Below, in pieces: positions 9,318 through 9,499 of a stretch of DNA of 64,000 nucleotides. Numbering within the stretch: position 1 is the first letter of the stretch; every line of letters begins with the position of its first letter. A program made the position numbers and the translations under genes. This stretch comes from Candidatus Sungiibacteriota bacterium (GTDB lineage Bacteria > Patescibacteriota > Minisyncoccia > Sungbacterales > HO2-52-23): NCBI GenBank assembly GCA_016180435.1, contig JACPBG010000003.1:77791-141790 (forward strand). Reading direction: 5' to 3'. The notes below the pieces were generated by a model. That model saw nothing but the letters and a program-made list of their open reading frames with translations, was not told where the DNA came from and searched no databases.

Positions 9318-9499
9318 TACGTTTTTTAACGGGCTTCGGCCGCTCCTGCGGCGGCCTGCAGGGTCGGCGAAACGCCGAGCACTCATATGGTTTACATAAA
9401 ATAGTTCCCGAGTTTATCGAGGGACTACCTAAATAAGTCAGAGAATGTATTTTATGAGTGCTCGGACCAAGCCGTTTCGCCTCCCATCGTTAAAAAACG
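9318..9499 (+). repeat. Family E structured hairpin element (copy E1, long variant)
   Basis: Outer stem cgttttttaacg/cgttaaaaaacg; ggccgctcctgcggcggcc hairpin; tgcagggtcgg; stem cgaaacg/cgtttcg; accaagc; cctcccat. Confidence 0.75.

What the first reader, a model, noticed from the sequence alone, without database searches (positions are those of the whole stretch)
9318..9499. Family E: a conserved multi-stem structure whose stems are kept by compensatory substitutions across six copies
Copies at 9318-9499, 14143-14400, 33467-33588, 42944-43170 (plus strand) and 45558-45693, 57341-57476 (minus strand) share three single-stranded motifs: tgcagggtcgg, accaagc and cctcccat(t/c)g. They also share a ggccgc-loop-gcggcc hairpin. 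The paired segments differ in sequence but stay complementary: inner stem cgaaacg/cgtttcg, cgagaca/tgtctcg, gggcaaaca/tgtttgtcc, gataaaca/tgtttatc, gataaaat/attttatc; each copy also has its own outer stem. Two copies carry the same internal insert (aaatagttccnagtttnncgagggactacc). This covariation pattern is what a functional structured RNA shows (the accaagc...cctccc arrangement loosely recalls small self-cleaving ribozymes). A hairpin-replicating DNA element is the alternative.
Basis: partly seen in the sequence, partly recalled or inferred. Interest (0 to 1): 0.75.

Follow-up and report, generated by a model that had tools for sequence, protein, structure and literature searches.

The report
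Y-shaped intergenic repeat of Saccharibacteria
The six copies are real members of an undescribed, many-copy intergenic element of Saccharibacteria (TM7) that always folds into the same Y shape, with invariant loops and freely co-varying stems; it behaves like a duplicating structured repeat rather than a proven ribozyme.

Summary
A covariance model finds the six reported copies plus two diverged full copies (25351-25474 minus strand, 3232-3373 plus strand) and at least two 3' fragments. About 60 further distinct members were found elsewhere; every taxonomically labelled one is in a Candidatus Saccharibacteria assembly. All share one fold: a closing stem P1, a 6-bp hairpin P2 with loop UCCNGCG bracketed by CUCG, and an arm GGG/CCC - P4 - bulge ACCAAGC - P5. 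Covariation is overwhelming: 39 of 42 pairs change on both sides, and 93% of cells are paired against 67% when shuffled. Nothing in Rfam, phage, plasmid or viral collections resembles it.

The ribozyme or cis-RNA reading is not supported. High-scoring copies lie antisense inside operons. G·U pairs are very rare (1.2%) and do not exceed A·C. No catalytic-core similarity exists.

Near-identical copies occur at non-homologous loci, occupancy of orthologous sites is patchy, other elements are nested inside copies, and 3' fragments occur. These point to a duplicating (mobile or gene-converting) element.

Most likely it is a non-autonomous repeat recognised by a protein as a folded single strand. 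Whether that strand is DNA or RNA is undecided.

The parts
9308..9511 (+). Copy 1. It starts 2 nt after the ftsZ stop codon. CTCG - P1 (about 20-24 bp) - P2 ggccgc/gcggcc - tgcaGGGTCGG - P4 gcgaaacg/cgtttcgc - P5 carrying an insert of about 85 nt - ACCAAGC - CCTCCCATCG - P1' - CTCG.
   Evidence: (72.7 bits)
14128..14400 (+). Copy 2, the standard 'CTCGCTAAGGGTCG' type, between an ADK-like gene and a dCTP deaminase gene. It is flanked by CTCGCT on both sides and interrupted by a foreign insert.
   Evidence: (45.3 bits for the 5' part)
14225..14354 (+). Foreign foldback (CCCATCACCAAAATTTTGAC...GTCAAAATTTGGTGCGGGG) inserted in the ACCAAGC bulge of copy 2, with CAAGC duplicated on either side. It is not part of the family.
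   Evidence: the same position is hit in L164:1567-1830
33449..33606 (+). Copy 3, directly after rpsJ (S10). CTCGCT - outer stem gcggttt/aaaccg - P1 - core - CTCGCT.
   Evidence: (75.5 bits)
42940..43175 (+). Copy 4, between rpsH (S8) and rplF (L6). It carries the same P5 insert as copy 1.
   Evidence: (67.9 bits)
45545..45706 (-). Copy 5, between rplO and secY, antisense to both genes.
   Evidence: (79.5 bits)
57344..57475 (-). Copy 6, the standard type and the best match to the family model. It lies upstream of the RNase P RNA gene on the same strand and is flanked by CTCG.
   Evidence: 123.2 bits
25322..25494 (-). Copy 7 (new), a diverged full copy antisense upstream of rpsL. GGG becomes GCA, CCC becomes CUG, ACCAAGC becomes ACCAUGC. 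Flanked by CTCGCT and CTCACT.
   Evidence: (53.8 bits, E 9e-12)
3221..3384 (+). Copy 8 (new), a strongly diverged relative just after rpsU. It has the outer stem gcggtttt/aaccgc, P1, CGCTTCGCTAAGCGTACGG and CCCTCCCGATTC, but no ACCAAGC bulge.
   Evidence: (25.6 bits, E 2e-4)
25248..25318 (-). 3'-terminal 'mini' fragment, 65 nt downstream of copy 7 on the same strand: TTCTTATTGTA - small hairpin - CCTCCCATTATCTC - AACCGC - CTCACT.
45448..45536 (-). 3'-terminal 'mini' fragment downstream of copy 5 on the same strand, with the same layout as the fragment at 25248-25318.

Best explanation
Family E is a Saccharibacteria-specific, many-copy, non-autonomous intergenic repeat of about 120-200 nt. Its unit of selection is a Y-shaped fold of one nucleic-acid strand.

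The fold has three parts:
- a long closing stem P1, often extended by an outer stem GCGGTTT/AAACCGC;
- a 6-bp side hairpin P2 with the invariant 7-nt loop UCCNGCG, bracketed by CUCG on both sides;
- an arm made of P3 (GGG/CCC), a UC/U internal loop, P4 (8-10 bp), the invariant 7-nt bulge ACCAAGC, and a variable hairpin P5 that tolerates large inserts.

Shown: the stems may have any sequence as long as they pair, while about 30 unpaired nucleotides stay fixed. Copies sit within a few nucleotides of stop codons, in either orientation. The family duplicates to new loci.

Inferred: a trans-acting protein reads the invariant loops displayed on the folded single strand, and that recognition is what propagates or maintains the element (transposition, or copy-to-copy conversion). 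This would resemble REP/REPIN, IS200/IS605-derived elements or attC sites, which are recognised as folded single-stranded DNA. I lean towards DNA rather than RNA as the recognised form. Inside operons the element is also necessarily transcribed, so a side effect on mRNA as an intercistronic hairpin is likely.
For: Fold and covariation:
- Searches support the fold. The mutual-information ranking is headed almost entirely by the proposed pairs.
- P3 also co-varies in diverged copies (GAC/GUC in L123:7126). The internal loop is closed by GGUCG/CGACC in L138:369.
- Within this one genome, paired columns are 53% identical between copies and unpaired columns 76%, yet stems stay paired.

Distribution:
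- The only true hits among 119 genome hits are four Candidatus Saccharibacteria MAGs.
- 59 metagenome loci were found.

Duplication:
- Copies that look >=95% identical by eye in the alignment, over about 150-200 nt, lie after rpsJ, after fusA and at a third locus in one metagenome.
- L153 (after rplC) and L171 (after ftsZ) share identical P4 and P5.

Patchy occupancy of orthologous sites:
- After ftsZ, the window and L171 have copies of different subfamilies, while L019 has only a small hairpin.
- After rpsJ, a copy is present in the window and in the L105 group but absent in L153.
- At the L148/L131/L158 site there are two different subfamilies and one empty site.

Orientation:
- Between co-directional genes, 19 copies are sense and 12 antisense. 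Antisense copies score as high as sense ones.
- There is only a 37:19 bias to the G-rich strand.

Pairing is Watson-Crick on both strands:
- G·U makes up 1.2% of cells.
- G·U against A·C is 12 against 12 in P2, P4 and P5.

Other:
- Flanks: CTCG/CTCGCT direct repeats sit at the feet of P2, P1 and the outer stem.
- Contigs often break inside the element, as expected of a repeat.
Against: - No transposase, HUH nuclease, recombinase or reverse transcriptase was found next to any copy or anywhere in about 580 kb examined. A single-copy enzyme elsewhere in the genome would have been missed.
- No clean empty site or variable target-site duplication was recovered.
- The eight copies in this genome are all old and mutually diverged, yet still well paired. 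One orthologous pair shows an in-place compensatory change: L134 against L128, A-T to G-C in P4. This is what host-level selection on each copy would produce.
- Sense orientation is somewhat preferred, and every operon copy must be transcribed.
- Single-stranded DNA and RNA motifs cannot be told apart by sequence analysis alone (Weinberg et al. 2017, PMC5737381).
Confidence: 0.45

Rival explanations
1. A host-serving structured RNA module within operon transcripts. Candidate roles are an intercistronic processing or stability signal, a protein-binding site, or a translational-coupling hairpin. On this view it is kept at each locus by selection and homogenised by gene conversion.
For: - Copies begin 2-30 nt after stop codons, inside ribosomal-protein, atp and other operons, so they are transcribed.
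- There is a sense bias of 19:12 relative to genes and 37:19 relative to GC skew.
- Convergent gene pairs outnumber divergent ones 12:2 as hosts.
- Old, diverged copies in one genome keep 93-96% pairing.
- One in-place compensatory substitution was seen at the rpsJ locus.
- A multi-stem junction with about 30 fixed unpaired nucleotides is typical of functional RNAs.
Against: - About one third of copies are antisense to their operon and are just as well conserved. In those transcripts the invariant loops would read as their complements.
- G·U pairs are far rarer than in known RNAs (the comparison rests on my own knowledge) and are fewer than A·C on the proposed strand.
- Occupancy of orthologous intergenic sites is patchy.
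- No promoter or terminator pattern is tied to the element.
Confidence: 0.3
2. A new class of small self-cleaving ribozyme carried by a repeat.
For: The size, the three-way junction, the invariant junction, loop and bulge nucleotides, the variable stems and the tolerance of inserts in P5 all resemble ribozyme families. Many ribozyme classes are multi-copy (my own knowledge).
Against: - No match to any Rfam ribozyme model (twister, twister-sister, hammerhead, pistol, hatchet, HDV, hairpin) at E<=10 on either strand.
- No extra tertiary pair was detected by mutual information.
- The wobble statistics do not single out an RNA strand.
- Nothing in the data bears on cleavage.
Confidence: 0.07
3. 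A single-stranded-DNA site used by the host replication or recombination machinery. Examples would be an attC/dif-like recombination site or a priming site of the single-strand-origin type. On this view it is not a selfish repeat.
For: - Strand-symmetric Watson-Crick pairing and orientation independence.
- A modest bias to the G-rich strand.
- Foreign foldbacks inserted twice, independently, into the unpaired ACCAAGC bulge, as if that bulge were exposed in DNA.
Against: - There are no attC R boxes (RYYYAAC/GTTRRRY).
- There are no cassette arrays; the flanking genes are core genes.
- No integrase or Xer gene lies nearby.
- A density of about one per 8 kb in this window has no known precedent for priming sites (my own knowledge).
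Confidence: 0.08

Closest known systems
ERIC/IRU, BOX, Correia (NEMIS/CREE) and bcr1-type interspersed intergenic repeats
   Same: 100-200 nt imperfect foldbacks confined to intergenic spacers. They occur in both orientations, are co-transcribed with neighbours, and number tens to hundreds per genome. They have size variants with internal inserts and truncated forms, and patchy occupancy of orthologous sites.
   Different: There is no sequence similarity, and the host is a different phylum. In those families the whole sequence is conserved, including the terminal inverted repeats. Here the stems are hypervariable and only the unpaired loops, bulge and junction are fixed, and the fold is branched (Y-shaped). 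No TA or other variable target duplication is seen.
REP/REPIN elements mobilised by RAYT (HUH Y1) transposases
   Same: A structure-dependent, non-autonomous repeat with a conserved tetranucleotide at the foot of the hairpin (GTAG there, CTCG here), found intergenically near gene ends. The enzyme would be encoded once elsewhere in the genome.
   Different: REPs are 20-40 nt simple hairpins with a conserved sequence. Family E is three to five times larger, branched, and carries invariant loops. No RAYT was found in the sequence available.
IS200/IS605-derived palindrome-associated elements (PATEs)
   Same: Recognition of folded single-stranded DNA hairpins with specific tetranucleotides beside them, and no target duplication.
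   Different: Those elements show strong strand bias relative to replication and have separate left-end and right-end hairpins. Here the bias is only about 2:1 and the whole element is one closed fold. No TnpA was found.
Integron attC sites
   Same: Structure is conserved while sequence is free, they are recognised as a folded single strand with extrahelical bases, and they lie directly behind ORFs.
   Different: There are no R''/R' core sites, no cassette array and no IntI, and the neighbours are core housekeeping genes.
Small self-cleaving ribozymes (twister, twister-sister, hammerhead, etc.)
   Same: Compact multi-stem junction, invariant unpaired nucleotides, variable stems and multi-copy occurrence.
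   Different: No covariance-model similarity. The junction sequences (none / CUAA / AU) match no known catalytic core. The strand is not defined.

Membership tests
Any Rfam 15 RNA family (including all self-cleaving ribozyme classes and retron msr) | Match to the family covariance model at or near its gathering score | tested here: not met
   At the gathering threshold the window gives only RNase P and two tRNAs. At E<=10 on three copies, both strands, there are only noise hits such as miRNA hairpins.
tRNA-like element / RNase P minihelix substrate | Cloverleaf, or a 12-bp acceptor/T-arm mimic, followed by NCCA | tested here: not met
   ARAGORN finds no tRNA-like gene at any copy. P5 is followed by NCCA (ACCAAGC), but the P5 length varies from about 5 bp to more than 20 bp.
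MITE (non-autonomous DDE transposon) | Conserved terminal inverted repeats | tested here: inconclusive
   The outer P1 ends are only loosely alike (GGYAWT...AWTRCC). The middle of P1 differs in every copy.
MITE (non-autonomous DDE transposon) | Target-site duplication whose sequence differs from site to site | tested here: not met
   The flanking repeat is always CTCG or CTCGCT, and it lies inside the variable segment at the L148/L131/L158 site. It therefore belongs to the element.
MITE (non-autonomous DDE transposon) | Related autonomous IS with the same ends | tested here: inconclusive
   None was seen in the window or in the loci. Complete genomes were not available.
REP/REPIN | Short (20-40 nt) palindrome with a 5' GTAG, occurring as inverted doublets | tested here: not met
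   The element is 120-200 nt, branched, and has CTCG rather than GTAG.
REP/REPIN and IS200/IS605 PATE | A Y1 HUH transposase (RAYT/TnpA) encoded in the same genome | tested here: inconclusive
A single gene elsewhere in the genome cannot be excluded.
IS200/IS605 PATE | Strong orientation bias relative to the replication strand | tested here: not met
   37:19 relative to local GC skew, and 5:3 in the window.
Integron attC | R''(RYYYAAC)/R'(GTTRRRY) boxes, cassette array, IntI | tested here: not met
   No such boxes are visible at the ends of the copies read (inspection). The neighbours are ftsZ, rpsJ, rpsH, rplO, rpsL and rnpB.
ERIC/BOX/Correia-type structured interspersed repeats (a functional class, not a homology family) | Intergenic, both orientations, foldback, size variants, patchy occupancy, tens or more copies per genome | tested here: met
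   The window has 8 copies plus fragments in 64 kb.
Retron ncRNA | Adjacent reverse-transcriptase gene, and a1/a2 repeats closing on the branching G | tested here: not met
   No RT gene is nearby. The 11-nt identity to retron-Eco1 msr (CCCTTAGCGAG, recalled from memory) sits in a different pairing topology. There is no Rfam msr hit.

The most novel reading that the evidence does not exclude
The invariant loops on a free-sequence scaffold are the business end of a new functional nucleic-acid class in CPR bacteria. It could be a new self-cleaving or otherwise catalytic RNA. Alternatively it could be a protein-recruiting 'punctuation' module that marks gene ends in the compact Saccharibacteria genome; for example, P5 followed by the NCCA-like ACCAAGC could act as an RNase P-type or other processing signal. 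In either case it would have been spread through the genome by its own duplication.
Probability: 0.12. Interest if true: 0.85.

Novelty: new member of a known kind. Interest (0 to 1): 0.55.

Why it matters
- Saccharibacteria have genomes of about 1 Mb (my own knowledge). This window carries one copy per 8 kb inside its most conserved operons. If that density held genome-wide it would mean on the order of a hundred copies and more than 1% of the DNA.
- The family pairs unusually strong covariation with about 30 invariant unpaired nucleotides and has no entry in Rfam. It is therefore a ready-made test case for whether such 'sophisticated' motifs act as RNA or as single-stranded DNA.
- It points to an unidentified protein partner (a transposase, recombinase or RNA-binding protein) in the candidate phyla radiation.
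- Practically, it explains contig breaks in Saccharibacteria assemblies and should be masked or annotated.

Tried and rejected
- **First genome scan too loose.** The first genome contigs pattern (19 fixed bases with two variable gaps) returned 119 rows, of which only 4 were real.
- **Other collections.** Viral contigs, phage records and plasmid records hold nothing similar.
- **Rfam.** Nothing at permissive thresholds on three copies.
- **Pseudoknots.** Hand inspection suggested GCU/AGC and GGU/ACC between the P2-P3 junction and the ACCAAGC bulge. These motifs are invariant, and the mutual-information scan shows no extra long-range pair, so this is neither supported nor excluded.
- **Deciding the strand.** The asymmetry comes only from P1 and the 3-bp helix at the base of P2, and could reflect constraints on the A-rich 3' arm. 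I judged it not decisive.
- **Exact-protein look-up.** The S8 protein found only a 1.3-kb contig identical to the window, so it gave no insertion polymorphism.
- **Empty site.** The L148/L131/L158 locus differs by replacement rather than by a clean insertion.
- **CTCGCT as a general genome signal.** It occurs only 32 times against 24 expected, and the excess lies at family E copies.
- **Intrinsic terminator or promoter role.** No consistent signal.
- **tRNA mimicry, attC, retron and anti-Shine-Dalgarno (CCUCC) ideas.** All were considered and dropped for lack of the defining features.
- **Literature.** Six searches found no description of this family.

Full report
**Observation**

The six copies are at the reported positions and strands. 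The composite motif AGGGTCG..CCAAGC..CTCCCAT never appears in shuffled sequence, and CCTCCCAT occurs 8 times against 1.6 expected.

Two details need correcting. Copies 2 and 6 have CTCGCTAAGGGTCG instead of TGCAGGGTCGG. The 'ggccgc' hairpin is itself a co-varying stem.

**Anatomy**

Minimum-free-energy folds of the three short copies agree on one architecture, with z-scores of about -6 to -7 on either strand.

- [CTCG or CTCGCT]
- optional outer stem GCGGTTT
- P1, 12-24 bp, with inner end TTTnARACA
- CG(A)
- CUCG - P2 (6 bp, loop UCCNGCG) - CUCG
- CUAA
- P3, GGG
- UC
- P4, 8-10 bp
- P5 hairpin, 5-8 bp or much longer
- (A)ACCAAGC
- P4'
- U
- CCC
- AU
- P1'
- [CTCG(CT)]

It is a three-way junction: a Y with a long foot, a short arm (P2) and a long irregular arm (P3-P4-P5). 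The full fold of copy 1, insert included, is -88 kcal/mol with z = -6.8.

**Relatives**

The window is a Saccharibacteria (TM7) chromosome segment. It carries ftsZ, comEC, pilB, the fusA-tuf-S10-spc ribosomal-protein cluster, secY and an RNase P RNA with large inserts.

A loose pattern scan of 185,579 species genomes returned 119 rows. Only four were real family members, and all four are Candidatus Saccharibacteria MAGs. A specific pattern scan of metagenomes gave 59 loci, nearly all true members. Their EF-Tu and ribosomal proteins are 70-90% identical to those of the window. Viral, phage and plasmid collections hold nothing similar.

**Covariation**

I built a covariance model from 37 sequences using the structure above. 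It retrieves 90 matches, 69 of them distinct, from the window plus 64 loci.

On that alignment:

- 92.9% of pair cells are standard pairs, against 67.2% after shuffling partners and about 46% when partners are slid by 1-3 columns.
- 39 of 42 pairs show changes on both sides.
- The covariation score is 0.567 against 0.153, and no shuffle of 500 reaches it.

That alignment is fitted to the model, so the independent evidence matters. A plain MAFFT alignment folded by RNAalifold recovered P2, P3, P4 and P5, with 19 of 24 pairs compensated. An all-against-all mutual-information scan is headed almost entirely by the proposed pairs and an extension of P5, with no further long-range pair.

P3 (GGG/CCC) is invariant in standard copies, but it behaves as a helix in diverged ones. 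It is GAC/GUC in L123:7126. In L138:369, GGUCG/CGACC closes the internal loop. L152:2310 has one continuous 14-bp helix.

Within this single genome, paired columns are only 53% identical between copies and unpaired model columns 76%. The stems drift and the loops do not.

**More copies in the window**

With filters off, the model finds two further members: 25351-25474(-) at 53.8 bits and 3232-3373(+) at 25.6 bits. Two 3'-terminal 'mini' fragments (CCTCCCATTATCT...AACCGC...CTCACT) lie 65-85 nt downstream of copies 7 and 5 on the same strand.

Across all loci there are six such 3' fragments and no isolated 5' motifs. Those whose surroundings I examined lie shortly downstream of a full copy.

The extra 130 nt of copy 2 is a foreign foldback inserted in the ACCAAGC bulge, with CAAGC duplicated. 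L164:1567-1830 carries a different foldback at the same position. L171, L141 and L134 carry inserts in P2.

**Is it an RNA?**

First, orientation. Using crude ORF calls, co-directional gene pairs host 19 sense and 12 antisense copies. I checked the antisense cases by annotation:

- window copy 5 lies between rplO and secY;
- L159 lies between atpF and atpH;
- L136 lies inside a VirB4-like operon.

These copies score 80-121 bits, as high as sense copies. The bias towards the G-rich strand is only 37:19.

Second, wobble pairs. Of 2655 pair cells, 2435 are Watson-Crick, 32 are G·U, 77 are A·C and 111 are other. After collapsing related sequences the counts are still about 70 A·C against 32 G·U. 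The excess comes from P1 and the 3-bp helix at the base of P2. In P2, P4 and P5 the counts are 12 against 12. From my own knowledge, an RNA on this strand should show G·U well above A·C. The complementary strand in fact folds better as RNA in 48 of 61 copies, though this may reflect sequence constraints on the A-rich 3' arm.

Third, no Rfam model, ribozyme or otherwise, matches at E<=10. No promoter or terminator pattern accompanies the element.

As Weinberg et al. note, covariation methods find single-stranded DNA structures as readily as RNA ones, and the two cannot be reliably told apart bioinformatically (PMC5737381).

**Is it mobile?**

Several observations point to a duplicating element.

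- The same subfamily lies after rpsJ (L105/L128/L135), after fusA (L145/L174) and at a third locus (L142), with unrelated flanks. It looks at least 95% identical by eye over 150-200 nt, including an appended 3' fragment. Several of these contigs come from one metagenome.
- L153 (after rplC) and L171 (after ftsZ) share identical P4 and P5.
- Orthologous sites are occupied patchily.
  - After ftsZ, the window and L171 carry different subfamilies, and L019 carries only a small CTCG-flanked hairpin.
  - After rpsJ, the window and the L105 group have a copy, but L153, whose S10 protein is closer to the window's, has none.
  - At one locus L148 and L131 carry different subfamilies, and L158 has unrelated ACGAAT repeats instead.
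- Contigs frequently end inside the element.

Against simple selfish decay:

- The eight window copies are old and mutually diverged, yet still paired.
- At the rpsJ locus, L134 differs from L128 by a compensated A-T to G-C change.
- No clean empty site, variable target duplication or transposase was found.

The CTCG/CTCGCT repeats that flank P2, P1 and the outer stem belong to the element rather than to the target.

**Placement**

Sense copies begin 2-30 nt after the upstream stop codon and leave 20-150 nt before the next start codon. Convergent gene pairs host 12 copies and divergent pairs 2. The family therefore sits at gene ends. The whole window is crowded with other foldback repeat families in the same kind of position.

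**Conclusion**

The structure and its covariation are real and striking, and the family appears undescribed: it is absent from Rfam 15 and from the six literature searches.

The best-supported reading is a non-autonomous, duplicating intergenic repeat. Its folded single strand, with invariant loops on free-sequence stems, would be recognised by a trans-acting protein. Recognition as DNA is somewhat more likely than as RNA. The element is unavoidably transcribed within operons.

A host-serving RNA role remains a serious rival. A ribozyme is possible, but nothing here supports it.

Noticed in passing
window 56572-57090 (-): The bacterial type A RNase P RNA gene is 519 nt against a 367-position model. 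It has several large inserts, of 119, 49 and about 25 nt.
   Followed up: no
window 9833-9921 (-): tRNA-Arg(TCT) is 89 nt long, with about 16 extra nucleotides in the variable region. It could be an unusually long variable arm or a small insert.
   Followed up: no
window 33000-45000 and elsewhere (for example 38640-38715, 44233-44331): Many of the intergenic spacers in the ribosomal-protein operons hold long foldbacks built from short repeated units (AGAACTT, ACGAATN, GCCAATC). The right arms end a few nt before the next ATG. At least 60 direct-repeat families were detected.
   Followed up: partly
window 14225-14354 (+); L164:1567-1830: Two different CCC...GGG-ended foldbacks are inserted at the same spot, the ACCAAG^C bulge of family E copies. 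In the window the insert has a CAAGC duplication on either side. The bulge looks like an insertion hot spot.
   Followed up: partly
window 3212-5638: A segment of about 2.4 kb carries three ORFs with no Pfam or NCBIfam hit and is absent from the syntenic L171 locus. Diverged copy 8 lies at its left edge, just after rpsU.
   Followed up: partly
L174 about 6830-6950 compared with L145 about 200-320: L174 has an insertion of about 112 nt directly after the fusA stop codon, flanked by a GAAGTGA direct repeat, that L145 lacks. It looks like a true target-site duplication by some other element.
   Followed up: no
window 34400-34520 (+): A probable relic of family E: CTCGCTAAAG..GGGTCGG.., followed by the perfect palindrome CCAATGGGAG-tgtaat-gCTCCCATTGG. 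It shows the 3' motif paired with its own complement.
   Followed up: no
window 21896-22297 (-): A stand-alone PD-(D/E)XK nuclease of the PDDEXK_3 family (E 3e-30) lies between repeat-rich spacers. No link to the repeats was tested.
   Followed up: no
family consensus, complementary strand: The complement of the conserved junction reads CCCTTAGCGAG, which is identical to 11 nt of the retron-Eco1 msr RNA as I recall it. The pairing topology differs and no RT gene is nearby, so I treated it as coincidence.
   Followed up: partly
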